From a virus: a stretch of DNA of 64,000 bases. Made by a program: the position numbers and the translations under genes. The notes below the pieces were generated by a model that saw nothing but the letters and a program-made list of their open reading frames with translations, did not search any database and was not told where the DNA came from. Below, in pieces: positions 4,054 to 17,341 of the stretch (position 1 is the first letter of the stretch; each line of letters starts with the position of its first letter). Where the stretch lies: the IMG/VR virus record IMGVR_UViG_3300009159_000064, positions 5,253-69,252 of that record. One strand, given 5' to 3'.

Positions 4054-4735
4054 GTCTATTTAGCGGGTCGGTTGGGCGTGTCCAGTTTTTTAACTAGGTC
4101 TATCTGGTACTTCTCAGTTGTTGGCGCCTGGGTCCTCCGCCCCAGCCAACCCTAAACCTCTACTTAAGGGTGGGGGTCTAACTCTCAACCACTACTAGAG
4201 GGTTGAGACTTACGGCTACCACACGGCGTACCACTACCACCACACGGCGTACACATACCTCCATGCCACTGTAGATGGCATTGATTGACAGATCGTGTGG
4301 GCGATTATGCGCACGCATTTATTTCGCCTGCACTCAGATAGCCAGTCTGCTGTAACTAGGGCTTAGAACGCATCGTGGAGCGTCTCAGGATGTCCACGAT
4401 CCTACGAATAGGTCTATGTCCACGAGCCTGCACATGATTGGGGACTATGGGGAGCGTGTGTCACCGAGTCACTTCACCAGTAGTTGATATCGCATTGCTG
4501 GTGACATATCTCGCTACCGAGTATGTCATCCAGTATGTCATCGGTATGTCTTCTCTCATGTCTCATGGAGTGATTGACCGATCAAGTTCGGGCGAATTAA
4601 TCAGGCCTGCAAATTGGGTGCGCAGGCTCGATCAGATTCCAGACTGCGCACTGGTGGAGGCTGTCTTCATCCATGCCGAGTGTTCTCATCTTCTCCTATC
4701 GCATCGTGGAGTGTGTCAATTTGAGTTTGGGCAAA
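4054..4735. other. Non-coding repeat/hairpin-rich region between convergent gene blocks
   Basis: TAGGTCTAT x3, ACCACACGGCGTAC x2, CGCATCGTGGAG x2, ATGTCCACGA x2, GTATGTC x3, several stem-loops; higher GC than flank. Confidence 0.6.
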
Positions 4736-4736
4736 A

Positions 4737-4778
4737 AAAAATACTCAGTGAGACATTGCTGACTCACTGAGTATTTTT
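4737..4778. terminator. Bidirectional intrinsic terminator
   Basis: Perfect 16-bp IR AAAAATACTCAGTGAG / CTCACTGAGTATTTTT, 10-nt loop, just past SNF2 stop. Confidence 0.85.
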
Positions 4779-4791
4779 ACAATTCAAATTA

Positions 4792-6417
4792 TTATTTTGA
4801 TTCTGTCCATCCATAACTGGCGAGCACTGCATTCGCATTGCTGACATTCTCATCGTTGATCAAGTTGCCATCAAAGTTAAACTCAACTCCATCCAGCACC
4901 GCATTCAACACTCCGCACTTCGCATCAACGATTGCGAACAGTCGCTCATCAATCGTGAGATCACCTTCAATGCATCCGAGCATGATGTGCGAAACTACTT
5001 CACGAGTCTGACCACGACGAGCCAAGCGATCTTCACACTGCATCAAGTCTGCACTCGTCCAGCATCCTTCAGCGTTCACATGATGGCGACCACTGGTGAG
5101 TGTGATGCCAACTCCCGATGCGATGACATTGCCCACCAGCACATTCGCACTGCCACTTTGAAATGCTTCAACACTTGCATTCTTTGCCGAGTCACTCATG
5201 CCACCTTCAATGCGCACGACATTGCACATCTCGCCATTCGGCATTTCATATTTGGCGAAATGATTTACATAAGCCTGCGCAACTGCTCGGTGAGTACAAG
5301 TGATGAAGACCTGCTCATTCTCGTCCAGCAGATTCTTCACATACTGCACGACTCCAGCAACCTTGCCATGACCCACGATGTCACGCAATGTGTTAATCCT
5401 AGAAATTGCTTCAGCCTTCATCGCACGCTCTGCACTGGGTGTACCTTTCATGTCTTCAATGTATTGAAACAGATCTGCTTCAGCCTCCATGTACTTGTCG
5501 GCAATCGCTGGAGCAATTTCTATGTAGTGCTTCACACGACCCTTATTCGGGAGCGTGAGCACCTCGCTTCGCAATCTGCGAATCATGATGCCATCCTTGA
5601 GTCGTGCATGGAGTTCATCCAAGTGTGCGACTCCACGAGTACCAAAGCGATCAATTCTCGGTGCGAACTTGCCAAGAAAATAATCAAAGCCATCAAGATT
5701 ATTTGTGGCGAAGTCATTCAAGCGATCAATCACCAGCAATGTTGGGATCAGATCCTTCGGATGATTGATCAATGCTGTACCACTCATGGCAACTCTGATC
5801 GCTCCTGCTGGCAATGCTCGTGCGATCTCCACAACTGCATCAGAGCGTTTGCTACGGGTGCTCTTCATGCGATGACACTCGTCTACAACTATCGCTTTCA
5901 CAACTTCTTTCAACTGCGATTTGTAACCTTCAACTGACAAGTCGCCCATCAACAGAACATCACACTCAGGCAATGGCACTGGAGTACCACCGATGACTCG
6001 CTTTGATTTACGACCAGTCTTCGGATCTTTGACTTCAACAGTCTTTCCACCAATCACTGGAGTACCTTTGCCAGTGATCTTCTGTACATTCAGCGATGGT
6101 GCGAACATCTTGAACTCTTTGATCCAGTTCAATCGCAAGTGTGGAGGCACGACTACGAGCACTGGCTTCATCCCAGCCTCCACAGCAGACTTGATGATGC
6201 AAACAGCCTGCGCAGTTTTTCCAACACCCATCTCATCACCAATAAGGACTCCACGATTCTTGAGAACCATTTGCACAGCATCAATCTGATAATCACTCAG
6301 TGGCAATGCAGTTGATGCCATCGCAATTTCTTGCAGTGGCATCTGTGGTACTTGAACTGAATTACTTTTATTTGCGATGAAACTATTCAACGCTTGAATT
6401 GCATTTTGATTTGACAT
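4792..6417 (-). CDS. SNF2/SWI2-family helicase-like ATPase
   Basis: GDEMGVGKT, VVDECH, MSGT, GVGITL, QCEDRLARRGQ motifs. Confidence 0.9.
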   Translation of the reverse strand: MSNQNAIQALNSFIANKSNSVQVPQMPLQEIAMASTALPLSDYQIDAVQMVLKNRGVLIGDEMGVGKTAQAVCIIKSAVEAGMKPVLVVVPPHLRLNWIKEFKMFAPSLNVQKITGKGTPVIGGKTVEVKDPKTGRKSKRVIGGTPVPLPECDVLLMGDLSVEGYKSQLKEVVKAIVVDECHRMKSTRSKRSDAVVEIARALPAGAIRVAMSGTALINHPKDLIPTLLVIDRLNDFATNNLDGFDYFLGKFAPRIDRFGTRGVAHLDELHARLKDGIMIRRLRSEVLTLPNKGRVKHYIEIAPAIADKYMEAEADLFQYIEDMKGTPSAERAMKAEAISRINTLRDIVGHGKVAGVVQYVKNLLDENEQVFITCTHRAVAQAYVNHFAKYEMPNGEMCNVVRIEGGMSDSAKNASVEAFQSGSANVLVGNVIASGVGITLTSGRHHVNAEGCWTSADLMQCEDRLARRGQTREVVSHIMLGCIEGDLTIDERLFAIVDAKCGVLNAVLDGVEFNFDGNLINDENVSNANAVLASYGWTESK

Positions 6418-6509
6418 GATTTCCCCTTCTAGAGATATGTGACTTGCACCCCATAGTCTATGGGATGCAAGCCACTTTGCTACTTATTCTTCGGGACATT
6501 ACAACACTT

Positions 6510-7271
6510 TTATTGCTGATTCTTCGCACACTCCGAACCCATACCACGAGCACGAGATATCTCGTCAGTGAGTGTTCTGCCACAGATGCAACAGCGTCCG
6601 AGATTGTCAGCGAAGGCTTTCATCGCATCATCTGACTGCTCAGTTGTCATTGCTTTCAATGTCTCAATCACTCGCACTGCTTCGCTCATGCGCACCACTG
6701 GACAGGACTCAAATGTCTGACCACCGAGTATTCGCTTGAGCACCATCAAGTCACCAGTTGCACGATGACTCGCTGTCAGCGAGTAGAAGTCAAGATCATT
6801 GTTGCCAGTGTGCGAAGGTAGTGCGAAGAATACCGAGCCACACTTGCGACACTGCTCGTGAACCCAACACTCAACTTGCACTGCGAGCACCGAGCCATCT
6901 TTAGGCTCACCACATTCGCCATCCTTGTGAAAGGTCAGCCATCGCTTGTCACTGAGTAATGCAATGCCAGTGTTCGCTGACACTGGATTACCACACAGTC
7001 CACAATCCTTGCTGTAGCGATTCATGATCACTCGGTCTGCTACGACTCCAGTGTGGGCGATTGAAATACTTGGTGCTTTGCGAGTTACTGATGGCGTGAT
7101 TGCCAACAATTTCTCAATGAACTCTGACGCTTCACGACTTGATTGCAAATTGCAATTTCCAATGTAATCAATAACCGAGTTTGGATCATCTTTTACTTTT
7201 AGAAGATCAGCACGCTCGGTTACTAACTTGACGATGAAATCAGTTTGCTTCTTGGTGATAAATGTATTCAT
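6510..7271 (-). CDS. DUF6011-like zinc-binding protein
   Basis: C-terminal GRCCICGRTLTDEISRARGMGSEC plus internal CxxC...H...C motif. Confidence 0.7.
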   Translation of the reverse strand: MNTFITKKQTDFIVKLVTERADLLKVKDDPNSVIDYIGNCNLQSSREASEFIEKLLAITPSVTRKAPSISIAHTGVVADRVIMNRYSKDCGLCGNPVSANTGIALLSDKRWLTFHKDGECGEPKDGSVLAVQVECWVHEQCRKCGSVFFALPSHTGNNDLDFYSLTASHRATGDLMVLKRILGGQTFESCPVVRMSEAVRVIETLKAMTTEQSDDAMKAFADNLGRCCICGRTLTDEISRARGMGSECAKNQQ

Positions 7272-7450
7272 TATTTTCCCTTCTGTGAATTGAAGTAATC
7301 TGCCATCGCTTCAGCAGTGCCACACGCACTGCAAATCTCGGTGACATTATCTCTGCGAGAAATTGCCCCACAGTATTTTCCAGCGTGTTCACGACTCGGT
7401 ATTGGCTCTGAACATATTGGACACATTTTAATTATGATTTTGTTTTCCAT
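7271..7450 (-). CDS. Small zinc-finger protein
   Basis: CPIC...AISRRDNVTEICSACG; GAGGAGG RBS. Confidence 0.75.
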   Translation of the reverse strand: MENKIIIKMCPICSEPIPSREHAGKYCGAISRRDNVTEICSACGTAEAMADYFNSQKGK

Positions 7451-7528
7451 TTTGTTACCCTCCTCAAGGTAGGACTCCATCTTAACCACACAATCGTGGA
7501 CATTACAACACTTTCATAAACGCCAAAA

Positions 7529-7557
7529 TCCCCAGCATCGGGGGGTGATGCTGGGGA
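7529..7557 (-). terminator. Intrinsic terminator
   Basis: IR TCCCCAGCATC / GATGCTGGGGA followed by TTTT on minus strand. Confidence 0.7.
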
Positions 7558-7582
7558 CTCGGCTAACGCTGGTTGAAGGGGA

Positions 7583-8617
7583 TTAAACCAGCGTAAGTTC
7601 TCGCAATCTGTCAATCACAACTGCATCATCTTGAGCCTGCTGTCCATTGACTAGGCGATTGTAATTTCGTCCTACTCGCTTCGCATCAGTGCCTGCGATG
7701 TGCTGGTTGAATGTGGTGAACGCCTGCACAACTCCGAGCGCAGTATTCTTCCAGTTCACAACACGCTCATCTGTTGCCCACAGTGCTTGCAAACTTTCAC
7801 GCTTGCTTGTCTGCATTGTCACAGATTTCTTTGATGGTTGATCAAGTGTGCCTAAGCCCACAGTGATTGGGTACATCTGCTCTACCAGTTTAGTGAATTG
7901 ATTGTCAGTGACTGACCACGCTGACAGCGCATTCAATTCTGCAAGCATCTCATCAGATGTTTGGTAGATGATTTCAAGCGCATCTCGTACTTCTGAGACA
8001 CTGCCATCCAACATTGTTTTACCCTTATGGCGAAACTTGACTACAGATTTTGAGCCTTCTGATAATGCCATTTCCAAAGTATTATCGCAAACAACTGCTT
8101 GCATGACCCTTCTGTATGTAGTTGCAAGTGAACCATTGTGCGCAGTACTTGCCAACAGTGTTGGGCGAAATGCGAAGCCATCTTGAGTTGTGACATTCTC
8201 AGGTACAGAAATCTGAACCCAAGCCTTGCCACCCTTTTGAAGCAAACCAGCAGAATCAATTCCAAGTTCATTGGTGTCAAGAATCTGCTCAAGGTTCTTC
8301 AGCAATGCATCATCAAATTGATGGATGTTGAAGCGATCAGAGAACACACCAAACACTTCTTTTGTTTGGTCATGCATAACTGCTTTACGATTCTCAATTT
8401 GCTTGTAATCGCCTGCTTCAGTTTTGATGAACACTTCAGTCTCAACTGCTGACCAGTTGAACAATCGCCTGCGAACATCTTCAATCGGTACGAACTTGTC
8501 GTAATGGTTGCTCTCGCCTTCTTGCTCTGACTCACGCCAGTGCCATGCTGTTCCTCGCTTCAACACATTGCCAATTAAGGTCATGGTGTTGAGCCATTTG
8601 GTGGTTTCTGCTGACAT
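7583..8617 (-). CDS. DUF932-family protein
   Basis: AWH, SAGLLQKGGKAW, STAHNGS, VVCDNTL, RHKG motifs; start set at MSAETT (GGAGG RBS, promoter upstream). Confidence 0.85.
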   Translation of the reverse strand: MSAETTKWLNTMTLIGNVLKRGTAWHWRESEQEGESNHYDKFVPIEDVRRRLFNWSAVETEVFIKTEAGDYKQIENRKAVMHDQTKEVFGVFSDRFNIHQFDDALLKNLEQILDTNELGIDSAGLLQKGGKAWVQISVPENVTTQDGFAFRPTLLASTAHNGSLATTYRRVMQAVVCDNTLEMALSEGSKSVVKFRHKGKTMLDGSVSEVRDALEIIYQTSDEMLAELNALSAWSVTDNQFTKLVEQMYPITVGLGTLDQPSKKSVTMQTSKRESLQALWATDERVVNWKNTALGVVQAFTTFNQHIAGTDAKRVGRNYNRLVNGQQAQDDAVVIDRLRELTLV

Positions 8618-8660
8618 TATTTTTCCTCCTGTTTGGTAAGCACGATTGCTTACATTCATA

Positions 8661-8691
8661 AATGTAATCTTGATTATTACGAATTGCAACC
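8661..8691 (-). promoter_or_regulatory. Early sigma70-type promoter
   Basis: GG-TTGCAA-N17-TACATT. Confidence 0.7.
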
Positions 8692-8726
8692 TCAAATGTA
8701 CTTATTATTTAAGCCAACAAACATAA

Positions 8727-8751
8727 AGGCTGGGGCGATAAACCCCAGCCT
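8727..8751 (-). terminator. Stem-loop, probable terminator
   Basis: IR AGGCTGGGG / CCCCAGCCT followed by a T-rich tract on minus strand. Confidence 0.65.
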
Positions 8752-8784
8752 CATGTTCTTAGTTTTGGACATTACAACAGTTTT

Positions 8785-9351
8785 TTAAGGTAAAGGGTTT
8801 TCCATCTTGGGAGCACCAAACAAACTATTGCGGAGTTCATCAAAGATCGTGGTGATTGCTTTCATGCTGTGATCCACTTGCAAAGTTGAATATGTGTAAT
8901 CCAACGATGCTTTTTCTTGTGATGATTTTTTAAGAGCCTCATGAACTATTTGAGTGATGAGATTACGCAAGTCAGAACCATTTTCAATGAGTTTCTTGGT
9001 AATCAATTCATCAATAGGTTCAACAAGTCGTTCAAGAAACTCACCTTCATCTACTGCATCTTTGATCTTGTCAGCCCAGTCAATGTCATCTGTTACATCA
9101 GTGATCTTGTCAGCGATGTCTAACTCATCAAGTGCTTCATCAATCATTGTGTTGATTTCTGATTTCTTTACGAAATCTTCAATGTCTTGTTCTCGCACGA
9201 CATCTTCCATGTCTTTGCTGTTTACAAGTTCTACTTTATCAACATAATTATCAATGATTGCTTCAACCTTCTCCGTAAAGAATGGTGTATTGAACAGTTT
9301 CGTAATTGAAACTGAAAACGCATCTGCAAACTCTTCTGCTAAATTAGTCAT
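8785..9351 (-). CDS. Acidic helical hypothetical protein
   Basis: 188 aa, D/E-rich quasi-repeats, AAGGAGG RBS. Confidence 0.8.
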   Translation of the reverse strand: MTNLAEEFADAFSVSITKLFNTPFFTEKVEAIIDNYVDKVELVNSKDMEDVVREQDIEDFVKKSEINTMIDEALDELDIADKITDVTDDIDWADKIKDAVDEGEFLERLVEPIDELITKKLIENGSDLRNLITQIVHEALKKSSQEKASLDYTYSTLQVDHSMKAITTIFDELRNSLFGAPKMENPLP

Positions 9352-9386
9352 TATTCCTCCTTGTTGGTTTTTGTTACTGGATTGTA

Positions 9387-9428
9387 AATGTAATGGTCAG
9401 ATTGTTTGAAAGCAACCTGACCATTACA
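9387..9428 (-). promoter_or_regulatory. Early promoter embedded in a 12-bp inverted repeat
   Basis: GG-TTGCTT-N17-TACATT; arms TGTAATGGTCAG (9389-9400) / CTGACCATTACA (9417-9428). Confidence 0.7.
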
Positions 9429-9434
9429 ACAGTT

Positions 9435-10130
9435 TTAGACAGTCAATCTTCTTGCTTGAAGAACTCCAAGTGATACACCAGCCTCAAGATATTGCATCAA
9501 GTTGGTGTTCCAGTATTCGTAGGCTTTTTCCCATTGCTCGTCAGTGAGTCCCTCATTAGATGGTGGTTGAGGATCATGACCAGCGAAATCTACTACTACA
9601 TTATTTCTGAATACTTCCCAGCCTGCGTACATATTTGACTCTTCGGTGTACCACATAGCAAATGTTAATTGTGGAAACATTCCTGAGATTAATTTAATTA
9701 GATTGCTTGCTGGTGACCATGCACTGGTGAACTCAAACCTAAGACCGTTGTACTCAGGGCAAAGTGTTCCGAACTCTTTTGGATTTGTACTTGTCTCAAG
9801 ATCATCCAGCAAGTCAATACTGCACGCTCCCCACTTTGTACCATAAACTTCGCAAGCCCAGTCGTACCAGTTTTTGTGACCGTACTTTTCAAGATTTGCA
9901 TTTTCTTGTTGTTGCAGTTTTTCTTGTGCTTCTTTATCGCCATTCCATCCTGCCATTGTGTTTCTTAATTCATCAGGACATTTGACAAGACTGTTGAAGT
10001 CAAAGAATAAATTAGGTTTAACTTCTCCATCAATGATCTCTTCTTCATAACCAGTTGTTTCTTTGATGAAACGATTAAGTTCTGAGTTGTCACCTGATAT
10101 TTCTAAGTGTTGATAGCACCAATTCGGCAT
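9435..10130 (-). CDS. DUF1281/YubB (Api92-like) ferredoxin-fold protein
   Basis: MPNWC, FDFNSLV, NWYDW...YGTKW, FTSAWSP motifs. Confidence 0.85.
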   Translation of the reverse strand: MPNWCYQHLEISGDNSELNRFIKETTGYEEEIIDGEVKPNLFFDFNSLVKCPDELRNTMAGWNGDKEAQEKLQQQENANLEKYGHKNWYDWACEVYGTKWGACSIDLLDDLETSTNPKEFGTLCPEYNGLRFEFTSAWSPASNLIKLISGMFPQLTFAMWYTEESNMYAGWEVFRNNVVVDFAGHDPQPPSNEGLTDEQWEKAYEYWNTNLMQYLEAGVSLGVLQARRLTV

Positions 10131-10162
10131 TTCGTTTTCTCCTTTGTTGTTGTGGATGTATT

Positions 10163-10205
10163 AATGTAATGATCGGATTGGCACATAAACAACCCGACCA
10201 TTACA
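10163..10205 (-). promoter_or_regulatory. Early promoter embedded in an inverted repeat
   Basis: GG-TTGTTT-N18-TACATT; arms TGTAATGATCGG / CCGACCATTACA. Confidence 0.65.
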
Positions 10206-10209
10206 AAAC

Positions 10210-10431
10210 TTACGGTAGAAACCTCATATTCTCTAATTCTGTTGTGCTCAAATACTTCACAGCAGTATTGGTTAGTTCTTCGGCATCCCAAACAACATCC
10301 CAGCCAGCGTCTTGAACATCAACGATCTTACTTAAATCAAGATGAGAATCGTAAGCATCTTCTATTGTCTCTGCTTCAACAACAACACCTACATCTATCA
10401 TCTTTGATATGCGCACTATAAATTGAGCCAT
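10210..10431 (-). CDS. Small acidic protein (DpnD/PcfM-like)
   Basis: VVVEAETIEDA motif. Confidence 0.55.
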   Translation of the reverse strand: MAQFIVRISKMIDVGVVVEAETIEDAYDSHLDLSKIVDVQDAGWDVVWDAEELTNTAVKYLSTTELENMRFLP

Positions 10432-10444
10432 AAATTACTTTTCG

Positions 10445-10801
10445 TTAATAATTGTTATAGGGATTTTGTCTATCCCAGTAGTCTCGCATTTTCTGACTCT
10501 TCTGCACAGATTTGACAGTACGCAAATCAGTGGTTAAGGACATTACAGAAGATTTTAGTTTTTCTACTTCTTCTTCTAGTAATTGAATTGGATTGTTGTT
10601 AAGAGTTACACCTTCCAAAGTCAGTTTTCTAATTTCATAAGTGAGTTCTGGAAACTGAACTAACTGTTCACATAAAAGCATTACTTCATGATCTTGAACA
10701 GTGGCTGTTAAGAGTCCATCAATGACGCTGTTTATATCCTTCTTCAAGTTTCGCAACAACTGCACAAGTTGTGTTCGTTGTTCTATTGAGTATTCGTTCA
10801 T
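10445..10801 (-). CDS. Hypothetical coiled-coil protein
   Basis: ATGA overlap with upstream gene; start MNEYS. Confidence 0.65.
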   Translation of the reverse strand: MNEYSIEQRTQLVQLLRNLKKDINSVIDGLLTATVQDHEVMLLCEQLVQFPELTYEIRKLTLEGVTLNNNPIQLLEEEVEKLKSSVMSLTTDLRTVKSVQKSQKMRDYWDRQNPYNNY

Positions 10802-11235
10802 GATATTTTTATCCCCATGATGTCGTTTGCGTAGTTGCGGATGCCCGAAAGTAGTTCTTCCCTGTAAACATTCCACAAGTAATCTGATGACAATATGTAT
10901 TGCCCCAACTGGTTTAGTCGGTCGTCTGTTAATTCTTTTGCGAACCTGTATTCTGCGTCTTCGTAACCGCTATCTAAACGATTGGTGATTTCTTCACGCA
11001 ACGCTTTCACACTGAATGCGATTGAGTTTGCGTAAGTGAGGTCGTTATTTACAAACTTCTCCAGTGGTGTTCCATACTTTTCAGCAAGTTCTGTAGACAC
11101 GCTGTCTGCTCCACTTTCAATCCATGCAGATAGCAATGCAAATCCTTCGCTGTCTAGATTGTCTATGTCTACGATTGAACTGTCTTCTACGGAACAAACT
11201 GTTCCATCAGTTCTGTTGATTACCATTTTGTACAT
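10798..11235 (-). CDS. Hypothetical protein
   Basis: Start MYKMV, TAATG coupling, AAGGAG RBS. Confidence 0.75.
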   Translation of the reverse strand: MYKMVINRTDGTVCSVEDSSIVDIDNLDSEGFALLSAWIESGADSVSTELAEKYGTPLEKFVNNDLTYANSIAFSVKALREEITNRLDSGYEDAEYRFAKELTDDRLNQLGQYILSSDYLWNVYREELLSGIRNYANDIMGIKIS

Positions 11236-11564
11236 TACAATGACTCCTTTTTTAATTTTGCTATAAGCACATCTAACTGATCTTCGGAACATAAAGATGA
11301 TAAAACACCAACAAGATATTCAACGGCATTATCGCCCCAGCCTGCTCGGACTAATCGTGATATTTCGTTATATCTGTTCAGCATGACTTCGTTATCGGGT
11401 TCTTCTTGATTGTGTTCTTCTTCCCATTCGCAATATGAGCAAGTGCCATCTTCGTTGTTCCAGTTGGCGCAAACACATTCGTGATGAGGATTGATTGTTT
11501 GATTGTCATATTTAAGATCGGCATATTCTTGTTCTGACATATCTTCGGGTGCTCTACTTCTCAT
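11235..11564 (-). CDS. Acidic Cys-containing hypothetical protein
   Basis: CVC...CSYCE; tight operon packing. Confidence 0.7.
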   Translation of the reverse strand: MRSRAPEDMSEQEYADLKYDNQTINPHHECVCANWNNEDGTCSYCEWEEEHNQEEPDNEVMLNRYNEISRLVRAGWGDNAVEYLVGVLSSLCSEDQLDVLIAKLKKESL

Positions 11565-11775
11565 AAATCACCCCTTGAGATAATGCAGACAAGCGACTAA
11601 CTGCGTCAAAGCCTGCTGTGAATATAACTTCGTTCCAGTCTTGTTCAGCCTTCTCAATCGTGTACTCTTCTGTTTCGTCAAGTAACGACTTAAGCAATGA
11701 ATCAAACCAGTCTCTTTGATACTTTACTGCTACCGCTAATTCACGGCATTCCTTCTTCCACTCTTTCTTTGTCAT
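11554..11775 (-). CDS. Hypothetical protein
   Basis: TAGAAGGAGG RBS downstream of a promoter. Confidence 0.75.
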   Translation of the reverse strand: MTKKEWKKECRELAVAVKYQRDWFDSLLKSLLDETEEYTIEKAEQDWNEVIFTAGFDAVSRLSALSQGVIYEK

Positions 11776-11800
11776 AATTACCTCCTTCTAAGGTATAAAC

Positions 11801-11832
11801 AAGTTACCTACTTCAATCTGAAATAAACAACC
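11801..11832 (-). promoter_or_regulatory. Early promoter
   Basis: GG-TTGTTT-N18-TAACTT. Confidence 0.5.
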
Positions 11833-12084
11833 TCAACTGCTAATAAAGTTTTCTATTGCTACATCTGAAAGATTTGATCCTACAACTTGACGAACATACC
11901 GATCATTAAGATTGTCATAAATTATTGAGTGAACTTCTTCTAATTCTTCTAAAGCCATTGGCAGTGAATGTAAAACTCCACGCTCTTCTGCTTCTCCACT
12001 GGTGATACCCTCCATGATGATGTCTCGGTAGCAGTTCAATGCAACCTCAATTATTTCCATGTGCTTATATGTGATTGGGGACAT
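11833..12084 (-). CDS. Small acidic hypothetical protein
   Basis: 83-aa ORF in gene-dense strand. Confidence 0.65.
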   Translation of the reverse strand: MSPITYKHMEIIEVALNCYRDIIMEGITSGEAEERGVLHSLPMALEELEEVHSIIYDNLNDRYVRQVVGSNLSDVAIENFISS

Positions 12085-12122
12085 TACAACTCTTTTCTGT
12101 GATTTGGGATTTTTAGTGTACT

Positions 12123-12213
12123 GGCGAGTAGTCCCATCTCCACTCCGTCATGCTTTGACAGGACTACTCACCTATTTGATGCTCACAACAAAGGAGGTTG
12201 AATGAGCACCAAA
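12123..12213 (-). ncRNA. Candidate structured RNA with anti-SD loop
   Basis: Two hairpins whose G-U pairs fit the minus strand; the 5' hairpin contains ACCUCCUUU. Confidence 0.45.
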
Positions 12214-12234
12214 ATCTTTTAGTATTTGTTGTTT

Positions 12235-12465
12235 TTACGCCCAAGAATCCACTCTGCTTTGTAACCAAGCGATACAAGTGTTAAACCAACAAATTACTTC
12301 TTCGCAATAATTCTCATCAAGTTCACTCATTGGGGTTGATTCTCTTAAAAAATCTATAAGTCCTAACAGATCTCTTTTGGTTATCGGAGCATTACCGTTT
12401 TCATCAAACATATGAACAGATGAATTAATAAATTGAATATGAGTTTCATTATTCATTGTTTTCAT
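12235..12465 (-). CDS. Hypothetical protein
   Basis: Operon-packed ORF; start may be 12456. Confidence 0.65.
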   Translation of the reverse strand: MKTMNNETHIQFINSSVHMFDENGNAPITKRDLLGLIDFLRESTPMSELDENYCEEVICWFNTCIAWLQSRVDSWA

Positions 12466-12631
12466 TCTCCGTGTCTGCGATCATGCCGTAGTTGTGGCAT
12501 GAAAAATCTTTTATGCTGGGTGAAACAGCAAGAAGATTCTGTAACTGATGCCAAGCATTATCTTCTGCCTGCTCCTCGTTTACTCCTTCACCATTTATTG
12601 ATATTGAAAAATTGAACATGTATGTTTTCAT
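12449..12631 (-). CDS. Small acidic hypothetical protein
   Basis: 60-aa ORF, IEGE-type EEQAED motif resembling neighbouring DpnD-like genes. Confidence 0.6.
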   Translation of the reverse strand: MKTYMFNFSISINGEGVNEEQAEDNAWHQLQNLLAVSPSIKDFSCHNYGMIADTENENNE

Positions 12632-12636
12632 CGTTT

Positions 12637-12834
12637 TTAGTTCTCTTTCTCACCAACAGTTGTGAGGACATTACAACAGTCTGCGCAAGTAAATCCGTCA
12701 GGATAACCAGTGTTGTAGGCTGGCTCAATAATCATTGCATCTTTATTTGCGTAACCACAACTCATGCAAACCAAACGCTCATCATCAATGACATATCCAA
12801 TAGTTCGCTGATCACTCATCGTCTTGCTCCTCAT
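12637..12834 (-). CDS. Small zinc-finger protein
   Basis: CMSC...GYPDGFTCADC. Confidence 0.7.
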   Translation of the reverse strand: MRSKTMSDQRTIGYVIDDERLVCMSCGYANKDAMIIEPAYNTGYPDGFTCADCCNVLTTVGEKEN

Positions 12835-13433: not shown

Positions 13434-13693
13434 TACTTCCTCTTTTGTTTTGCTGGTGCTTTTAATGGTGATTTGAGTCTTGCAAGTTCTCGCTCTAATC
13501 CTGAGCCTTCGCAGTTGTCAAGCAGACTGTAAAGACCACTAACCCACTTCGCAACACTTACTGGTACAGGTGTTGTATTTAAGTAAGTTGCATAGTCGTT
13601 GATTACGCTCTCTACTTCTCTTGACAGCCCTGATCCTTCAACATTTTTTGTAATGTCAAGAACCTCAGTGATAAAAGTTTTGTAATCTTTCAT
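13433..13693 (-). CDS. Hypothetical protein
   Basis: Internal repeat NxEGSGLxRE x2; TAATG coupling. Confidence 0.7.
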   Translation of the reverse strand: MKDYKTFITEVLDITKNVEGSGLSREVESVINDYATYLNTTPVPVSVAKWVSGLYSLLDNCEGSGLERELARLKSPLKAPAKQKRK

Positions 13694-14333: not shown

Positions 14334-14359
14334 TGCATTCTCCCTTCTAGAGAATTAAT

Positions 14360-14390
14360 ACATTACAGAACTATTTAGTGAATTGCAACC
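14360..14390 (-). promoter_or_regulatory. Early promoter
   Basis: GG-TTGCAA-N17-TAATGT. Confidence 0.65.
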
Positions 14391-14396
14391 TGTTTA

Positions 14397-14624
14397 TTAT
14401 ATGTAGTCACAATCAACTGCGTAAAGATGGACAATCTTTCCATACTCTGTTTTCATCGCATAATACTTTCCGTATCTGTCCTTAAAACCTAACTCATCAA
14501 CGCAGTTAAGAAACTCCATGTTTTCTACATCTTTTGAAGAATAGAAATCTTCCGTGTTGTTTGCTGGAATAGATACTCCTTGCGCTATCAAATCTTGTCG
14601 CATTCTCACAACCAACATCAGCAA
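14397..14624 (-). CDS. Hypothetical protein
   Basis: GGAGG RBS; overlaps WhiB stop. Confidence 0.65.
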   Translation of the reverse strand: MLMLVVRMRQDLIAQGVSIPANNTEDFYSSKDVENMEFLNCVDELGFKDRYGKYYAMKTEYGKIVHLYAVDCDYI

Positions 14625-14908
14625 CCTCCATTCTGTTCTGCAAACTTTTCTCTTCTTCGTAAGTTGCGTCTAGTCTTATTAGTCGTGTTGCCCCAAATAC
14701 CTATGCAATGATTGTCAATGGCATATTGCAAACACGCTTTTTGAACAGAACAGTTATTGCAATAAGCAAATGCTGATTTAGCACTTTCTCCTCTGCCGAT
14801 AATAAATATGTCTTTAGGAGCATCTTTACAGTTTGCAAACTTACGCCATGATTGACCATATTTTTCGGTGACAGTAAATGCTGGTAACTCGGTTTTTCTT
14901 TTTGTCAT
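14618..14908 (-). CDS. whiB: WhiB-family transcription factor
   Basis: W...ANC...CNNC.V...CL.YA...GIWG: four Cys plus G(I/V)WG turn; start MTKRK after GAGGAGG. Confidence 0.85.
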   Translation of the reverse strand: MTKRKTELPAFTVTEKYGQSWRKFANCKDAPKDIFIIGRGESAKSAFAYCNNCSVQKACLQYAIDNHCIGIWGNTTNKTRRNLRRREKFAEQNGGC

Positions 14909-14915
14909 AATTGTG

Positions 14916-15254
14916 TTACACCTCCTCTTCAAAGAAACTCTCTGCTTCAAAGAAACCAAAGCAAGCACCATCATCATCACTAGCACCAAAGTAAAAACCT
15001 TCGGGTGCTATTCCGTTAAGGACGGTAAACAATGTGTCTACCAGTTCGTTACTCCCCGCTAAATCTTCTGCTTCTGTTCCCATGCTGTCAATGACATCGT
15101 TCCATTCGTTGTACACCTTTGCAAGCAGTTGCTTGTTGTTCTCATCAAGAACTGACATAAACTTTCGTGCCAAATCTGAGTTCTTGAGTGTGCCTTCTGA
15201 TACGACAACATTCTTCCAGTCATCGCTCAGATCATTAATTTGTTCCAGTGTCAT
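14916..15254 (-). CDS. Acidic hypothetical protein
   Basis: SEGTL...APEGFYFGASDDDGACFGF; GGAGG RBS. Confidence 0.8.
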   Translation of the reverse strand: MTLEQINDLSDDWKNVVVSEGTLKNSDLARKFMSVLDENNKQLLAKVYNEWNDVIDSMGTEAEDLAGSNELVDTLFTVLNGIAPEGFYFGASDDDGACFGFFEAESFFEEEV

Positions 15255-15781
15255 GTCAATGCCTCCACAAGTTTTTCTAAATCAGAACCCATCCACTCTT
15301 TTAATTTATCTATGTCATCTGTTTTTGCTAAGAGTGTTATCGCTGTGCTAAATACATTGCTCGTTGGCTCAATCAAAAAAGCAACTGCATATGGCATGTG
15401 CTGATTTAACGAACAAACTTCTTCCATCCATTCGTTGAATGTTTGTTTCCGTTTTGCAATAGCATCATCCCAACCACCTGTAGTCCAACCATCGGTTACG
15501 GTATCCCAACCTTTTATTTTTGTTTCAAAATATCCACGCCAATCGCTGGTGCTGATCCAGTCCCTAGTAATTTCAAGGTTGGATGGTATGTCATCACCAT
15601 ATTCAGTTATCCGAATGTGGTTGCCAATGTAGTATTTTCTTAACTCGTTATTTTCCACAACAAGTAAAGTTGATGGATGCTCCATGTCTGCTGACTCGCA
15701 AGACTCGCATAACGGAGCATCTTGAGTATGACTCCAAGTCATCTCATCATGTTCCTCATTGCACTCTACGCACTTTTCCAT
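15251..15781 (-). CDS. Zinc-finger-containing hypothetical protein
   Basis: CVEC...CESC at N-terminus; TAGAAGGAGG RBS. Confidence 0.8.
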   Translation of the reverse strand: MEKCVECNEEHDEMTWSHTQDAPLCESCESADMEHPSTLLVVENNELRKYYIGNHIRITEYGDDIPSNLEITRDWISTSDWRGYFETKIKGWDTVTDGWTTGGWDDAIAKRKQTFNEWMEEVCSLNQHMPYAVAFLIEPTSNVFSTAITLLAKTDDIDKLKEWMGSDLEKLVEALT

Positions 15782-15810
15782 TAGTGACCTCCTTCTAAGG
15801 TTGGATTAAG

Positions 15811-15841
15811 AGACTACAGGTCGTTATCGCTTTTAACAACC
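15811..15841 (-). promoter_or_regulatory. Early promoter
   Basis: GG-TTGTTA-N17-TAGTCT. Confidence 0.55.
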
Positions 15842-15985
15842 TTCTTCTTACCTATTAGTAATGGTTGATAGGTATTGTTTGAATTAGGGCAAATATGTAA
15901 TGGTGGTTCAGTAATTGTTGTATATGTGGTTATGGCTTCCGAGCAGTTCGGGCAATGCCAGTGTTCAGTTTTAGTCATATATTGG

Positions 15986-16528
15986 TTATGGCTTTAAAGC
16001 AGTCCACGGCAACCAGCCTGCGACATCATAAAGTAACTTACCAGCCTTAAGGTTAGTCAGTGGGTCAAGCAATGGTTCTTGAGTACATATATCCATTTGT
16101 TTACAGACTAGCCCAGCATATTCTTTATGATCTTGTTTCCAGTGAACCCCATTGATCTGTAATAGACCACTATCTGATCTGTGACTCCATTCGCTTACGC
16201 CTGTGATGTTGCAGTCTTTGTCTACCTTGTCCCCACCTACCCTGTTTGGGCAACAACCTGATTCTCGTAGTGCGATCTGTTTAAGTTTTCCGATCTGCTC
16301 TACCTGCCAGCCTGCTTGCAGTGCCAGTTTTGGTAGCCATGAGCAATCTCCCCATTTATAAGTGACAGCAGGCATTACAGGATTTTCGTTTAATGTTGAG
16401 TAACTGATTATGTTATTTACTTGTTTAGGCATTACAGAACTATCCTCTTCGGTTAACGCAGGGCTAACACCAAAAGATAGAAGTAGGTTGAAGATGGATA
16501 AAACAATAACTAACGGTAATTTGTGCAC
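15986..16528 (-). CDS. Secreted SLT-like lytic transglycosylase
   Basis: N-terminal signal-like segment; IALRESG catalytic Glu, DSGLLQIN, NLKAGKLLY, GWLPW. Confidence 0.8.
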   Translation of the reverse strand: MHKLPLVIVLSIFNLLLSFGVSPALTEEDSSVMPKQVNNIISYSTLNENPVMPAVTYKWGDCSWLPKLALQAGWQVEQIGKLKQIALRESGCCPNRVGGDKVDKDCNITGVSEWSHRSDSGLLQINGVHWKQDHKEYAGLVCKQMDICTQEPLLDPLTNLKAGKLLYDVAGWLPWTALKP

Positions 16529-16551
16529 TAAGCATCCTTTGTCCAGTTAAT

Positions 16552-16580
16552 AAAAAAGACCCTACAAAACACATAGGGTC
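16552..16580 (-). terminator. Intrinsic terminator
   Basis: IR GACCCTA / TAGGGTC then T6 on minus strand. Confidence 0.6.
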
Positions 16581-16602
16581 AAAGCCTGTTAAGGGCGTGT
16601 AT

Positions 16603-17028
16603 CTAGTTTACCTCATTAGACTTACCAAACATCGTTTTGTGCACATTTTCTATATCTGTAAAAGGCTTACCAGCACTGGGATACAGAGATTTATTTATTA
16701 TTTTTTCAAAGTTTTTCGTGTGAGCGACAGAACATTCTTCACAAGAGCATCCTTGTCTAAAGCGTTGTGATGATCCGTGTCGTGCAAGATGCTTGTCAGT
16801 TTTATTAAAATATGATGAGCGTTCCGTTGGAGTTAAGCCACCCCACATACCATGAACTTCTTTTTCACCAAGTTTTAAACATTCTTTCCAAACAGGACAA
16901 CTGTTGCAAACTGTTACAGCAACATCATAAAATAATCGTTGCTCTGAATATCCTTCTATCGGAGGAAACCATAAACTTCCATGCAGTTTCCTACACGCTG
17001 ATTTATCAAACCAATTAGGTGTTTCCAT
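16603..17028 (-). CDS. whiB: WhiB-family protein with C-terminal Zn-binding extension
   Basis: W...AC...CNSCPV..EC...GMWGGLT..ER followed by HG...GCSCEEC. Confidence 0.85.
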   Translation of the reverse strand: METPNWFDKSACRKLHGSLWFPPIEGYSEQRLFYDVAVTVCNSCPVWKECLKLGEKEVHGMWGGLTPTERSSYFNKTDKHLARHGSSQRFRQGCSCEECSVAHTKNFEKIINKSLYPSAGKPFTDIENVHKTMFGKSNEVN

Positions 17029-17341
17029 GTGGGTTAGCCTCTCGGTATAATACGAGGGCAATGATGGCGTAGGCGGCCAAATCCATTAAAGAGTCTTCAA
17101 TTCCTTCGTTGACTAAAGCACTACCTTTCGCAGCGTTTTGCAAACGGACAACTTTGTCATTGGCTCTTACCAGTGTTCCAATCCATGCTGGGATTCCCCA
17201 TTGCTCAGAAGAACGCACATTACCTAAAGTGTCTATGCCTATTCCGTAGTCTCTGCCTTTTCTGTCATGGAGTAAAGCCATTTCTTCCAGCACCTGAAAG
17301 AACATGGGATGACCATGCAAGTGTTCAAACATTTTGCTCAT
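17015..17341 (-). CDS. DUF1599 / nucleotide-modification-associated domain 1 protein
   Basis: KGRDYG, VRANDKVVRL, EDSLMDLAAYAII. Confidence 0.8.
   Translation of the reverse strand: MSKMFEHLHGHPMFFQVLEEMALLHDRKGRDYGIGIDTLGNVRSSEQWGIPAWIGTLVRANDKVVRLQNAAKGSALVNEGIEDSLMDLAAYAIIALVLYREANPHGNT

What the first reader, a model, noticed from the sequence alone, without database searches (positions are those of the whole stretch)
4608..17074. A ~12.5-kb early block purged of several restriction palindromes: staged entry or anti-restriction system
Seen by manual scan (not computed): no AGCT between 3601 and 18388, no ACGT between 3845 and 17342, no GGCC between 4607 and 17075, no CCWGG between 4131 and 21928, and no GGWCC between 4135 and 20444. 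All occur repeatedly in 1-4.6 kb and beyond 22 kb, where AGCT is very frequent. GATC, CATG, TGCA and GTAC are retained, so this is not general palindrome loss. The block matches the early-promoter region, starts at the putative terminus and ends at the nucleotide-modification-like cluster. Established: T5 (first-step transfer) and T7 (slow entry, Ocr) expose a leading segment first. Inference: this segment enters unprotected and encodes functions that shield the site-rich remainder; I am not aware of this being described for actinobacterial myoviruses.
Basis: partly seen in the sequence, partly recalled or inferred. Interest (0 to 1): 0.85.

Follow-up and report, generated by a model that had tools for sequence, protein, structure and literature searches.

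The report
Restriction-site-free leading arm of an actinophage
One 12.5-kb end-proximal block of early genes in an uncultured freshwater actinobacterial phage has lost every copy of many short restriction-enzyme target words that are common in the rest of the genome, most likely because this block is the DNA that meets the host's restriction enzymes before the phage's protection is in place.

Summary
In window 4605-17074 there are 0 AGCT, ACGT, GGCC, CCWGG and GGWCC sites (about 103 expected from the rest of the contig). A synonymous-codon shuffle gives 29±4.5 AGCT and 28±4 ACGT. GCWGC, GGNCC and RAATTY are purged too. A partly purged ramp runs to about 20.5-22 kb.

The contig is a 73%-complete fragment of a roughly 97-kb freshwater myovirus with WhiB genes.

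All 10 related contigs that I examined whole, and 4 of 4 closer relatives, carry the same syntenic purged block, but with lineage-specific motif sets.

The block starts sharply at a conserved non-coding element. That element shares a motif with the terminal repeats of the cultured relatives BRock and LuckySocke. The far boundary is graded.

T5's first-step-transfer DNA shows a weaker version of the same signature.

Best reading (0.6): this is a leading, first-exposed genome arm, as in T5 and T7-like phages. Entry order and the shielding function are inferred, not shown. The principle is already published (T5; Autographiviridae, 2025). This is a striking new case in a new phage group.

The parts
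4097..4210 (.). Conserved non-coding element at the sharp (proximal) edge of the purged block. It contains TTAAGGGTGGGGGTCT at 4165-4180 and is a candidate terminal (DTR/packaging) element.
   Evidence: 78-87% nucleotide identity to the same position in G001, G003, G004 and G005, where neighbouring proteins are only 40-55% identical. The motif matches nt 26-43 of BRock's 221-bp terminal repeat (16 of 17 with G004; score 29, against null maxima of 28 and 25 in 400 random windows each). It also matches the same position in LuckySocke's 344-bp repeat.
4211..4791 (.). Non-coding junction between the element and the 3' end of the helicase gene. It is repeat-rich and lies inside the purged zone.
   Evidence: Sequence. 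The only ORF here (4438-4770, +) has no homologue and looks spurious. The single GGCC at 4604 reads G>A in contigs of 3 other runs.
4605..17074 (.). Core purged block: zero AGCT, ACGT, GGCC, CCWGG, GGWCC, GCWGC, GGNCC and RAATTY.
17075..21927 (.). Graded transition zone. Purged motifs reappear at about 2 per kb (17-20 kb) and then at normal density. CCWGG and GGWCC stay absent up to 21928 and 20444.
4792..6417 (-). SNF2-family helicase/translocase, the last gene of the block, transcribed toward the junction.
   Evidence: Pfam SNF2-rel_dom 2e-22 and Helicase_C; phrog_62. 46-48% identical homologues at the same place in 4 relatives.
6510..7271 (-). DUF6011-containing protein.
   Evidence: syntenic in relatives.
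7271..7489 (-). Small zinc-ribbon-like protein.
   Evidence: Weak Pfam hits below cut-off. 63-76% identical in relatives.
7583..8695 (-). DUF932 / TIGR03299 'phage/plasmid-like protein'. Used as the marker to fetch relatives.
   Evidence: phrog_1221 1e-73; TIGR03299 1e-58; PF06067 in homologues.
8785..9351 (-). Very acidic 188-aa protein (net charge -24) with no homologue in the 4 relatives compared. One of several acidic small proteins in the block.
   Evidence: No family hit. The AF2 model is unusable.
9435..10130 (-). Acidic protein with a DUF1281_C (Api92-like ferredoxin-like) domain.
14618..14989 (-). WhiB-like regulator 1.
   Evidence: phrog_472 1.5e-16.
16603..17061 (-). WhiB-like regulator 2, the first gene of the fully purged core.
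   Evidence: phrog_472 1.4e-15.
6494..12677 (-). Family of promoter-like sites (A-rich stretch, then TGTTGTAATGTCC on the minus strand). Exact copies at 6494, 7498, 8767, 12079 and 12666; diverged copies at 9419, 10538 and 11230.
   Evidence: The core TGTAATG on the gene strand has 12 of its 17 contig copies in the block, and is similarly enriched in 8 of 8 genomes.
17015..19565 (-). DUF1599 protein, DUF7768/deoxyribosyltransferase-like protein, a 93-aa ORF and a 478-aa protein that PHROGs calls queuine tRNA-ribosyltransferase. These lie in the transition zone.
   Evidence: The 478-aa protein has no Pfam, NCBIfam or PDB-sequence hit.

Best explanation
The block is the end-proximal, early-expressed arm of a linear genome of the ~97-kb class. 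The phage is an uncultured freshwater actinobacterial myovirus.

The block begins at a conserved non-coding element that most likely marks the physical terminus, with a short direct terminal repeat as in the cultured relatives BRock and LuckySocke.

This arm is the DNA that host Type II restriction enzymes can reach before the phage's protection is in place. It enters first, or is exposed longest. Any mutation that creates a target word for a restriction enzyme circulating in the host population is therefore lethal here, but tolerated in DNA that arrives later. Over time this has removed every copy of 8 or more short palindromic words from about 12.5 kb. The pressure fades with distance from the end, giving the 17-22 kb ramp.

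Products of the block then shield the remainder. Candidates are the many acidic small proteins and the conserved SNF2 translocase / DUF6011 / Zn-ribbon / DUF932 set. How they would do this is unknown.

Words that are absent genome-wide (CCGG, CGCG, TCGA; AGCT in most relatives) would belong to enzymes that this shield does not cover.

Shown here: the purge, its independence from codon usage, its conservation with changing motif sets, the sharp-versus-graded boundary asymmetry, the conserved boundary element, and the block-specific promoter-like motif.

Inferred: the position of the terminus, the order of entry, the early timing, and the existence and identity of the shield.
For: 1. Size of the effect. 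0 sites of five motifs in 12,470 bp. The same five motifs total 470 sites in the remaining 56.8 kb (n values; profile), so about 103 are expected. The codon-shuffle null never comes near zero for AGCT or ACGT (minima 16 and 14 in 1000 shuffles).

2. Palindrome specificity. In unbiased scans of all 4-, 5- and 6-mers, the words that fall to zero are palindromes or contain one. The two most depleted of 133 4-mer classes are AGCT and ACGT. None of the asymmetric Type IIS or Type III words in the 179-motif panel ranked among the 14 most depleted, apart from GCAGC, which equals GCWGC.

3. Conservation of the phenomenon, not of the words.
- 10 of 10 related contigs examined whole (G000-G009; capsid 83-87% identical where the gene is present) have a syntenic block of about 12-18 kb with two or more motifs at gap p<1e-3.
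- Example sets: TTAA, CCWGG and GGWCC in G005 and G003; these plus ACGT and GGCC in G001; AATT, ATAT, TATA and TTAA in G002 and G009.
- 4 of 4 closer relatives (DUF932 77-82% identical, loci of 12 kb or more) share this window's set.
- AGCT is absent genome-wide in six of the relatives (G001, G005, G006, G007, G008 and G004; one site in G003), but is purged only in the block here.

4. Superset rule. Words avoided genome-wide are also avoided in the block: TCGA 1 vs 43.7, CGCG 0 vs 20.1 and CCGG 0 vs 8.5 in the codon shuffles.

5. Boundary asymmetry.
- On the junction side the last sites of the different motifs fall within 358-2981 bp of each other in 7 of 8 genomes. They fit one common edge at p>0.05 in 5 of 8 (G001 p=0.05, G000 p=0.022, G004 p=4.5e-4).
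- On the far side they spread over 4.6-8.8 kb, and a common edge is rejected in 8 of 8.
- Summed statistic: 63 on the junction side versus 227 on the far side, df 43 each.

6. Terminal element. A non-coding element 78-87% identical between genomes sits exactly at the sharp edge. It shares TTAA(A/G)GGTGGGGGGTC with nt 26-43 of the experimentally defined ends of BRock (221-bp repeat) and LuckySocke (344-bp repeat). The relatives' large terminase is 45-47% identical to BRock's over its full length. In BRock and LuckySocke a block of small genes also abuts that end.

7. Early-type content. Two WhiB genes, many small acidic ORFs, lower conservation than the replication and structural genes (40-55% vs 70-87%), and a promoter-like motif concentrated in the block in 8 of 8 genomes.

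8. Positive control. T5's first-step-transfer DNA, annotated in its record as entering first and with its pre-early genes pointing toward the end, shows the same direction of effect. AGCT is 22 vs 59.5, CCWGG 2 vs 11.9, GCWGC 11 vs 26.

9. Published experiments (passages read).
- T5-like phages are restricted by Type I and II systems only if sites lie in the FST DNA (PMC10644984; bioRxiv 10.1101/866236).
- In Marinomonas Autographiviridae only Type I motifs in the first-injected region matter (PMC12455610, abstract and Discussion).
Against: - No direct evidence for termini, entry order or timing. All 22 runs that hold the sequence are kept as contigs only, so neither read starts nor depth could be read.
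- The resemblance to the cultured phages' terminal motif is short (16 of 17 bases, empirical p about 0.003 or lower) and was found post hoc.
- BRock itself shows no strong purge in its terminal block.
- The block's genes point toward the putative end, so transcription cannot pull the DNA in as in T7.
- There is no T5-like non-coding 'injection stop' region at the distal edge. The largest intergenic gap between 16.5 and 23 kb is at most about 180 nt.
- No homologue of a known anti-restriction protein was recognised in the block.
- Staged DNA entry is not established for any contractile-tailed actinophage (my recollection, not a search).
- In the closer relatives a few isolated sites do occur inside the block: GCWGC at 7609 in L071, ACGT at 3800 and 4920 in L078.
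Confidence: 0.6

Rival explanations
1. Unmodified early block. The bulk of the genome is shielded by a phage-made DNA modification, made by the DUF1599 / deoxyribosyltransferase-like / TGT-like cluster at the distal edge. The block is left unmodified, for example because host RNA polymerase must read it at once. The block therefore has to avoid sites by sequence.
For: - The cluster lies at the distal edge in every relative.
- Sites are freely tolerated outside the block.
- No DNA methyltransferase of three Pfam families was found in 5 of 5 genomes, so any chemical shield would have to be of another kind.
Against: - No mechanism is known that would exempt one contiguous 12-18 kb stretch from a base modification.
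- The TGT-likeness rests on one PHROG hit only. There is no Pfam TGT, QueC or QueD (PTPS) in 5 of 5 genomes, 3 of them at least 94% complete. There is no NCBIfam or PDB-sequence hit either.
- Genome-wide zero words show that the remainder is not generally shielded.
- T5 has unmodified DNA according to the passages read, yet shows the same kind of regional depletion.
- The motif-specific, graded distal edges fit a time or distance gradient better than a modified/unmodified switch.
Confidence: 0.15
2. Mosaic origin. The early block circulates as a module among phages of different hosts and carries the site-avoidance history of other hosts. There is no link to the order of entry.
For: - Block proteins are far more diverged between relatives (40-55%) than the rest (70-87%), and many ORFs are genome-specific.
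- GC is raised at 4-7 kb.
- Motif sets differ between relatives.
Against: - The block's avoided set is a superset of the genome-wide set in each genome examined, not a different set.
- The block sits at the same syntenic place, with the same sharp edge at the same conserved element, in all 10 contigs.
- Within one genome different motifs have significantly different distal edges. A single recombination joint cannot produce that.
- Codon usage does not explain the loss.
Confidence: 0.1
3. Self-nuclease avoidance. The phage makes early site-specific nucleases that destroy host DNA while only the leading arm is in the cell, and the arm lacks their target words. Davison proposed this idea for T5 A1.
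For: The idea is set out for T5 in bioRxiv 10.1101/866236 (passages read). It would also give a block-limited loss of palindromes.
Against: - It needs staged entry too, so it is a variant of the best explanation rather than a true alternative.
- Eight or more words, differing between close relatives, would need many phage nucleases.
- No nuclease family was recognised among the block proteins scanned. The only PDDEXK-like hit is outside the block at 27578-27943.
Confidence: 0.08
4. Chance, base composition or codon and amino-acid usage.
For: GGCC alone (gap p=0.03), and CCWGG or GGWCC alone under the codon null (1-1.5%), are individually weak.
Against: AGCT and ACGT are at 0 against 29 and 28 in the codon-preserving shuffles, with minima of 16 and 14 in 1000. 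Poisson p is 6e-19 and 1e-13. The pattern recurs in 10 of 10 relatives.
Confidence: 0.01

Closest known systems
Bacteriophage T5 first-step-transfer (FST) DNA and its restriction insensitivity (Davison & Brunel 1979, as cited in the papers read; T5 record NC_005859)
   Same: - An end-proximal segment of pre-early or early small genes, transcribed toward the genome end.
- Restriction acts only on sites within that segment, and sites elsewhere are tolerated (passages in PMC10644984 and 10.1101/866236).
- T5's FST shows a measurable depletion of AGCT, CCWGG and GCWGC.
- The shielding protein is unknown in T5 as well.
   Different: - T5 is a siphovirus of E. coli with a 10.2-kb terminal repeat and a long non-coding injection-stop region. 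Here the relatives' terminase and cultured kin point to a short repeat (221-344 bp), and no non-coding stop region exists at the distal edge.
- The purge here is far more complete: zero for 8 or more words with 13-42 expected, whereas no 4-5-mer falls to zero in T5.
- The segment is longer (about 13-18% of the genome against 7.9%) and its edge is graded.
- No A1 or A2 homologue was recognised.
Leading (first-injected) region of Autographiviridae: T7 with Ocr, and Marinomonas murciaviruses (PMC12455610, NAR 2025)
   Same: Selection by R-M systems is concentrated on the first-injected DNA. Anti-defence genes are encoded there. The paper states outright that R-M systems act as sub-genomic filters (Discussion read).
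   Different: - Those are podoviruses with transcription-driven entry and early genes pointing inward. The demonstrated case concerns one Type I motif.
- Here many Type II-like palindromes are involved, the genes point outward, the phage is a myovirus of Actinobacteria, and nothing has been shown by experiment.
Genome-wide restriction-site avoidance in phages (Rusinov et al. 2018; seen only as a citation in papers read)
   Same: Loss of short palindromic Type II target words. This genome also shows genome-wide loss of CCGG, CGCG and TCGA.
   Different: The feature here is regional, with a sharp edge at a putative terminus. Whole-genome counts would miss it: AGCT is at random-expected density over the contig as a whole.
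Leading regions of conjugative plasmids (depleted in R-M targets and rich in anti-defence genes; cited in PMC12455610's Discussion)
   Same: The first-entering DNA is depleted of restriction targets and encodes establishment functions. DUF932 (TIGR03299, 'phage/plasmid-like protein') also occurs on plasmids and integrated elements. That last point is my recollection apart from the family name.
   Different: Plasmid leading regions enter as single-stranded DNA by conjugation. Here the carrier is a virion with double-stranded DNA.
Streptomyces phages BRock and LuckySocke (Borockvirus and kin), the nearest cultured relatives
   Same: - Capsid 60%, portal 55% and terminase 45-47% identical.
- A terminal block of small genes abuts a short terminal repeat carrying the shared TTAAAGGT(G/A)GGGGGTC motif.
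   Different: - The block genes are not homologous and point inward.
- BRock shows no strong regional purge.
- GC is 52%, and the hosts are soil Streptomyces.

Membership tests
T5-type first-step-transfer segment | Segment lies at the physical genome end that enters the cell first | tested here: inconclusive
   Only indirect evidence: a conserved boundary element with a motif shared with the defined ends of BRock and LuckySocke, and the sharp-versus-graded boundary asymmetry. No reads were available to map ends.
T5-type first-step-transfer segment | Restriction targets absent from the segment but present and tolerated elsewhere | tested here: met
   Same direction of effect in T5 itself.
T5-type first-step-transfer segment | Segment is part of a long (about 10 kb) direct terminal repeat | not testable with these tools
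   Depth is one figure per Logan contig. The cultured kin have short repeats of 221 and 344 bp, which argues against a long repeat.
T5-type first-step-transfer segment | Long non-coding, repeat-rich injection-stop region at the inner edge | tested here: not met
   Genes are tightly packed from 16.5 to 23 kb, with the largest gap at most about 180 nt. In T5 the iss is annotated at 9140-10149.
T5-type first-step-transfer segment | Homologues of the A1 and A2 DNA-transfer proteins | tested here: inconclusive
   No such PHROG or Pfam hit among the block proteins scanned. The smallest ORFs were scanned against Pfam only.
T7-type transcription-coupled entry with an early anti-restriction gene | Early genes transcribed inward from the leading end, so that RNA polymerase pulls the DNA in | tested here: not met
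   If the junction is the end, all block genes (minus strand, 17061 down to 4792) point toward it.
T7-type transcription-coupled entry with an early anti-restriction gene | Recognisable Ocr/ArdA-type DNA mimic or SAM hydrolase in the leading region | tested here: inconclusive
   No family hit. Several very acidic proteins are present, with net charge -10 to -24. The AF2 model of the 188-aa one has pLDDT 41.6. LuckySocke has an annotated ArdA-like gene beside its terminal block.
Phage 7-deazaguanine (DpdA) DNA modification system | TGT-family DNA transglycosylase | tested here: inconclusive
   phrog_887 at 1.5e-35 for the 478-aa protein. No Pfam TGT hit in 5 of 5 genomes. No NCBIfam or PDB-sequence hit.
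Phage 7-deazaguanine (DpdA) DNA modification system | preQ0 synthesis genes (QueC, QueD and others) | tested here: not met
   PF06508 and PF01242 are absent from 5 of 5 genomes, 3 of them at least 94% complete. QueE and FolE were not searched.
Phage self-methylation (mono- or multispecific DNA methyltransferases) | A DNA methyltransferase gene | tested here: not met
   PF00145, PF01555 and PF02086 are absent from 5 of 5 genomes. G000 itself is only 73% complete.

The most novel reading that the evidence does not exclude
A whole lineage of abundant freshwater actinobacterial myoviruses delivers its genome in a staged or slow, polar fashion. A 13-18 kb leading arm, transcribed toward the end, is exposed alone. 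It encodes a broad, so far unrecognised shield against Type II restriction, and perhaps uses its conserved SNF2 translocase to bring in the rest.

If so, the per-motif lengths of the purged zone would be a sequence-only ruler of exposure time. The motif sets would be a read-out of the restriction enzymes circulating in uncultured hosts (probably Nanopelagicales-like).
Probability: 0.35. Interest if true: 0.75.

Novelty: new variant of a known kind. Interest (0 to 1): 0.62.

Why it matters
1. The signal is exceptionally clean. The direction and extent of genome exposure to restriction can be read from sequence alone, in phages that have never been cultured. The same largest-gap scan could be run on any phage with fixed ends to predict which end leads.

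2. The block is a defined 12.5-kb search space for new inhibitors of Type II restriction. T5's equivalent function was still unidentified in the papers read here.

3. The rapidly changing motif sets between close relatives show an arms race with the restriction repertoire of abundant freshwater Actinobacteria. AGCT is purged block-only here but genome-wide in kin. TTAA, GATC and ACGT come and go. The motif sets name the likely specificities: AluI-, HaeIII-, EcoRII-, AvaII/Sau96I-, TseI/Fnu4HI-, MseI- and ApoI-like. These enzyme names are recalled, not taken from a tool.

4. Whole-genome avoidance statistics miss this kind of selection entirely.

Tried and rejected
- Nucleotide search of the block and of a replication stretch against 50,697 phage records found no match.

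- Helicase-seeded search of viral contigs gave one distant 53%-GC contig without this purge. It has its own AATT and TTAA gaps and is the same record as L002.

- Distant DUF932 loci (34-38% identity; L024-L027, 4 of the 27 loci L001-L027 held). L024 and L026 gave no flagged gap, L027 a 3.7-kb CTAG gap, and L025 gaps of at most 6.7 kb. The phenomenon is therefore not a property of DUF932 neighbourhoods in general.

- BRock's terminal block shows only mild, GC-compatible depletion (TTAA 5 vs 21.7, AGCT 24 vs 50.8).

- Read laying. All runs are contigs, so no depth step, read starts or ends could be seen. A long terminal repeat could be neither confirmed nor excluded. No habitat or abundance claim is made from these rows, beyond the fact that the runs are labelled freshwater or lake metagenomes.

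- Generic sigma-70 promoter and terminator scan of 3.5-23 kb gave no more hits than shuffles.

- Rfam gave no hit in the window at gathering thresholds.

- ESM Atlas for the acidic 188-aa protein returned only unnamed viral clusters at 0.84. Its AF2 model had pLDDT 41.6, so no fold search was run.

- The + strand ORFs in the junction regions of relatives look non-coding. They are not proposed as first genes.

- A first boundary statistic was contaminated by partly purged and nested motifs, and was replaced.

- Supplementary files of papers were not opened. S5 Table of PMC8594841 and the supplements of PMC10644984 may hold per-region site counts for T5-like phages.

- Davison 2015 (PMC4743489) is not held. 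Statements about the 1979 T5 work rest on passages.

- My three literature searches listed no paper describing regional site avoidance in actinobacterial or freshwater phages. For one search I read only the titles and the starts of the abstracts.

Full report
WHAT THE WINDOW IS

The window is bases 5253-69252 of a single 69,252-bp viral contig. It is 41% GC with no end repeat, and CheckV rates it 73% complete. Nearly all genes lie on the minus strand.

PHROG and Pfam scans give this layout:
- 41-63 kb: portal, major head protein, tail sheath and baseplate.
- 28-39 kb: DnaB-like helicase, primase, a second SNF2-like helicase, SSB, DNA polymerase I, UvsX-like recombinase and a Cas4-like exonuclease.
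- 17-20 kb: a DUF1599 / deoxyribosyltransferase-like / '478-aa TGT-like' cluster.
- 17.06 kb down to 4.79 kb: two WhiB-like regulators, many small and often very acidic ORFs, a DUF1281_C protein, a DUF932/TIGR03299 protein, a zinc-ribbon protein, a DUF6011 protein and, last, an SNF2-family helicase.
- 4053-4791: a non-coding junction that separates this array from a small + strand module (1375-4053).

The nearest cultured phages are Streptomyces myovirus BRock and its kin (capsid 60% identical) and Bacillus phage BCD7. The 22 public runs listed as holding the block are labelled freshwater or lake metagenomes, or plain metagenome.

Synteny with relatives of 92-98 kb shows that the contig lacks about 27 kb, including the large terminase.

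CHECK OF THE OBSERVATION

All five gaps are as reported.

In 4608-17074, observed counts against the expectation from the rest of the contig and from a Markov model of the block are AGCT 0 (41.9 / 38.8), ACGT 0 (29.6 / 22.8) and GGCC 0 (7.9 / 11.4). GATC, CATG, TGCA and GTAC are normal.

Shuffling synonymous codons within the block's genes 1000 times gives AGCT 29.2±4.5 (minimum 16), ACGT 27.6±4.2 (minimum 14), GGCC 8.1, CCWGG 4.5 and GGWCC 4.2. Codon and amino-acid usage therefore do not explain the loss.

Pooled, the five words occur 0 times in 4605-17074. Their density is then about 2 per kb from 17 to 20 kb and 6-14 per kb beyond. On the other side it is already normal up to 4131.

A panel of 179 recognition-type words adds GCWGC (0 vs 22.8), GCNGC (1 vs 29.6), GGNCC (0 vs 13.4) and RAATTY (0 vs 12.7).

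Unbiased scans of all 4-, 5- and 6-mers show that the words falling to zero are palindromes or contain one. One non-palindromic word, CCAGA/TCTGG (2 vs 31.4), is unexplained.

CCGG, CGCG and TCGA are absent or nearly so over the whole window. In the block they stand at 0, 0 and 1, against 8.5, 20 and 44 in the shuffles.

Contigs from the probable source run and from a second study, at about 97% identity, bridge both edges, so the block is not a chimera.

RELATIVES

I therefore used the DUF932 protein and an alignment of its homologues to fetch loci from IMG/VR and from metagenome contigs. I pulled nine related contigs whole.

Four of them, G001 and G003-G005, are syntenic gene for gene with this contig. 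The replication and structural proteins are 70-87% identical and the block proteins 40-55%.

Every one of the 10 contigs examined whole (G000-G009) has a syntenic block of about 12-18 kb with very large site-free gaps. The words differ between contigs:
- G005 (98,060 bp, complete): TTAA 0 of 387 sites in 18.2 kb (p=1e-32), plus CCWGG, GGWCC, CASTG, GCWGC and GTYRAC.
- G003 and G006: similar to G005. G006 also lacks ACGT.
- G001: ACGT, TTAA, GGCC, CCWGG, GGWCC and GCWGC.
- G004, G007 and G008: CCWGG, GGWCC, GCWGC and others.
- G002 and G009 (more distant, 48-49% GC): AATT, ATAT, TATA, TTAA and GGWCC.

AGCT is absent from the entire genome in six of these relatives (one site in G003; present in G002 and G009). 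Here it is missing only from the block.

Four closer relatives (DUF932 77-82% identical; L071, L074, L075, L078) share this window's own set, with sites in the flanks and only isolated sites inside. These four, with L084, L085 and L087, are the 7 loci of 12 kb or more that I examined out of the 22 returned.

Distant DUF932 loci (34-38% identity) and BRock show no comparable block.

In each genome the block's avoided set includes the words avoided genome-wide.

THE TWO EDGES DIFFER

On the junction side, the last sites of the different purged words fall within a few hundred to about 3000 bp of each other in 7 of 8 genomes. They are compatible with one common edge at p>0.05 in 5 of 8.

On the other side they are spread over 4.6-8.8 kb, and a common edge is rejected in 8 of 8. 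The summed statistic is 63 versus 227, at 43 degrees of freedom each. The gamma null used is approximate.

The distal edge falls around the DUF1599 / TGT-like cluster in all genomes, but at different points for different words.

WHAT LIES AT THE SHARP EDGE

The first ~110 nt of the junction (window about 4097-4210) is 78-87% identical at the nucleotide level across relatives whose flanking proteins are only about half identical. The last CCWGG and GGWCC sites lie inside this element.

It contains TTAAGGGTGGGGGTCT. BRock's record has a 221-bp exact terminal repeat whose bases 26-43 read TTAAAGGTGGGGGGTCT. The match to G004 is 16 of 17, with score 29 against null maxima of 28 and 25 in 400 random windows each.

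LuckySocke has a 344-bp repeat with TTAAAGGTAGGGGGGTC at the same distance from the equivalent end.

In both cultured phages a roughly 10-12 kb block of small genes abuts that end. The relatives' terminase is 45-47% identical to BRock's.

This makes the junction the best candidate for the physical terminus. It remains an inference from a short motif.

THE BLOCK AS A TRANSCRIPTION CLASS

An A-rich stretch followed by TGTTGTAATGTCC lies upstream of several block genes, with five exact copies, all in the block and all on the gene strand. The core TGTAATG on the gene strand is concentrated in the block in 8 of 8 genomes, for example 14 of 25 in G005 and 18 of 29 in G004. Some copies are coding coincidences inside the WhiB genes.

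A generic sigma-70 scan was uninformative.

WHAT COULD PROTECT THE REST

No DNA methyltransferase (three Pfam families) and no Pfam TGT, QueC or QueD were found in 5 of 5 genomes. The 478-aa protein is TGT-like only by PHROG. A chemical shield is therefore unsupported, though not excluded.

No known anti-restriction family was recognised in the block. Its many acidic proteins are candidates only. The one structure prediction tried was unusable.

COMPARISON WITH WHAT IS KNOWN

The T5 record annotates bases 1-10219 as the first-step-transfer DNA that enters first, with dmp, A1 and A2 pointing toward the end and an injection-stop region at 9140-10149. I compared T5 1-9600 with 60-110 kb. AGCT is 22 vs 59.5, CCWGG 2 vs 11.9 and GCWGC 11 vs 26. 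None of five common 6-bp sites occurs in the FST, but only 0.4-1.9 of each is expected. This is the same kind of signal, much weaker.

Passages read in PMC10644984 and bioRxiv 10.1101/866236 state that Type I and II systems (and CRISPR) hit T5-like phages only through sites in the FST DNA, and that the protecting function is unidentified.

PMC12455610 (abstract and Discussion read) shows the same for a Type I motif in the first-injected region of Marinomonas podoviruses. It argues that R-M systems act as sub-genomic filters on leading regions, including those of plasmids.

The concept is therefore known. What is new here:
- the phage group (contractile-tailed, actinobacterial, uncultured);
- the completeness and multiplicity of the purge;
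- its conservation with fast-changing word sets;
- the graded inner edge without a stop region;
- genes that point outward, so entry cannot be pulled by transcription.

VERDICT

The best explanation is a leading, first-exposed genome arm under concentrated restriction pressure, followed by protection of the remainder (confidence 0.6).

Rivals:
- an unmodified early block beside a modified remainder (0.15);
- mosaic origin (0.1);
- avoidance of the phage's own early nucleases (0.08), which also needs staged entry;
- chance or composition (about 0.01).

Novelty: a new variant of a known kind. Interest: 0.62.

Noticed in passing
window 4608-17074: The non-palindromic word CCAGA/TCTGG is strongly depleted in the block (2 vs 31.4 expected), and ACCAGA and ATCTGG are at 0 vs 8.6 each. 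This might be a Type IIS or Type III target, or a functional motif. It is not among the top words in G005 or G001.
   Followed up: partly
whole window: CCGG (0), CGCG (1) and TCGA (8) are avoided across all 64 kb. The relatives add AGCT and, in some, GATC genome-wide.
   Followed up: partly
contig ends (window 64000 and upstream of window 1): The contig is a 73%-complete fragment. About 27 kb that is present in G005 between its 40.1 and 66.9 kb, including the large terminase, is missing.
   Followed up: yes
window 40719-40789: Three copies of an 18-nt repeat (AGTGTCTCTGGAGTCACC-like) at 23- and 30-nt spacing, upstream of the replication module. They look like iterons and may mark a candidate origin.
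   Followed up: no
window 24165-24272: Five tandem 15-nt units (GGTGCAGACGCTTGC-like) inside the 519-aa ORF 23858-25417. This ORF has no family hit, and only G004 has a homologue.
   Followed up: no
window 21097-21138, 23186-23227, 23513-23554: A shared 42-nt stretch at the 5' ends of three small minus-strand genes, giving them the same N-terminal peptide.
   Followed up: no
window 27215-27547: A SpoVS-family protein (Pfam 1.7e-19) that is 90-92% identical across relatives. This makes it one of the most conserved proteins of the lineage.
   Followed up: no
window 4604: The only GGCC near the proximal edge reads G>A in contigs of three other runs (X2, X6, X10). In those strains the site-free zone starts about 470 bp earlier.
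   Followed up: partly
L074 and L075 (closer relatives): GATC is absent from the block part of these loci (first sites at 6034 and 5899), but is retained at 51 sites in this window's block. This is another word whose regional purge differs between close relatives.
   Followed up: partly
L067 (LuckySocke 101870-102541): An annotated ArdA-like antirestriction gene lies next to LuckySocke's terminal small-gene block.
   Followed up: no
junctions: G005 76883-78019, G001 4512-5606: The non-coding junction is 1.1 kb long and 86% identical between G005 and G001 over 1170 nt. That is far more conserved than the adjacent genes. It has no Rfam match in this window's version.
   Followed up: partly
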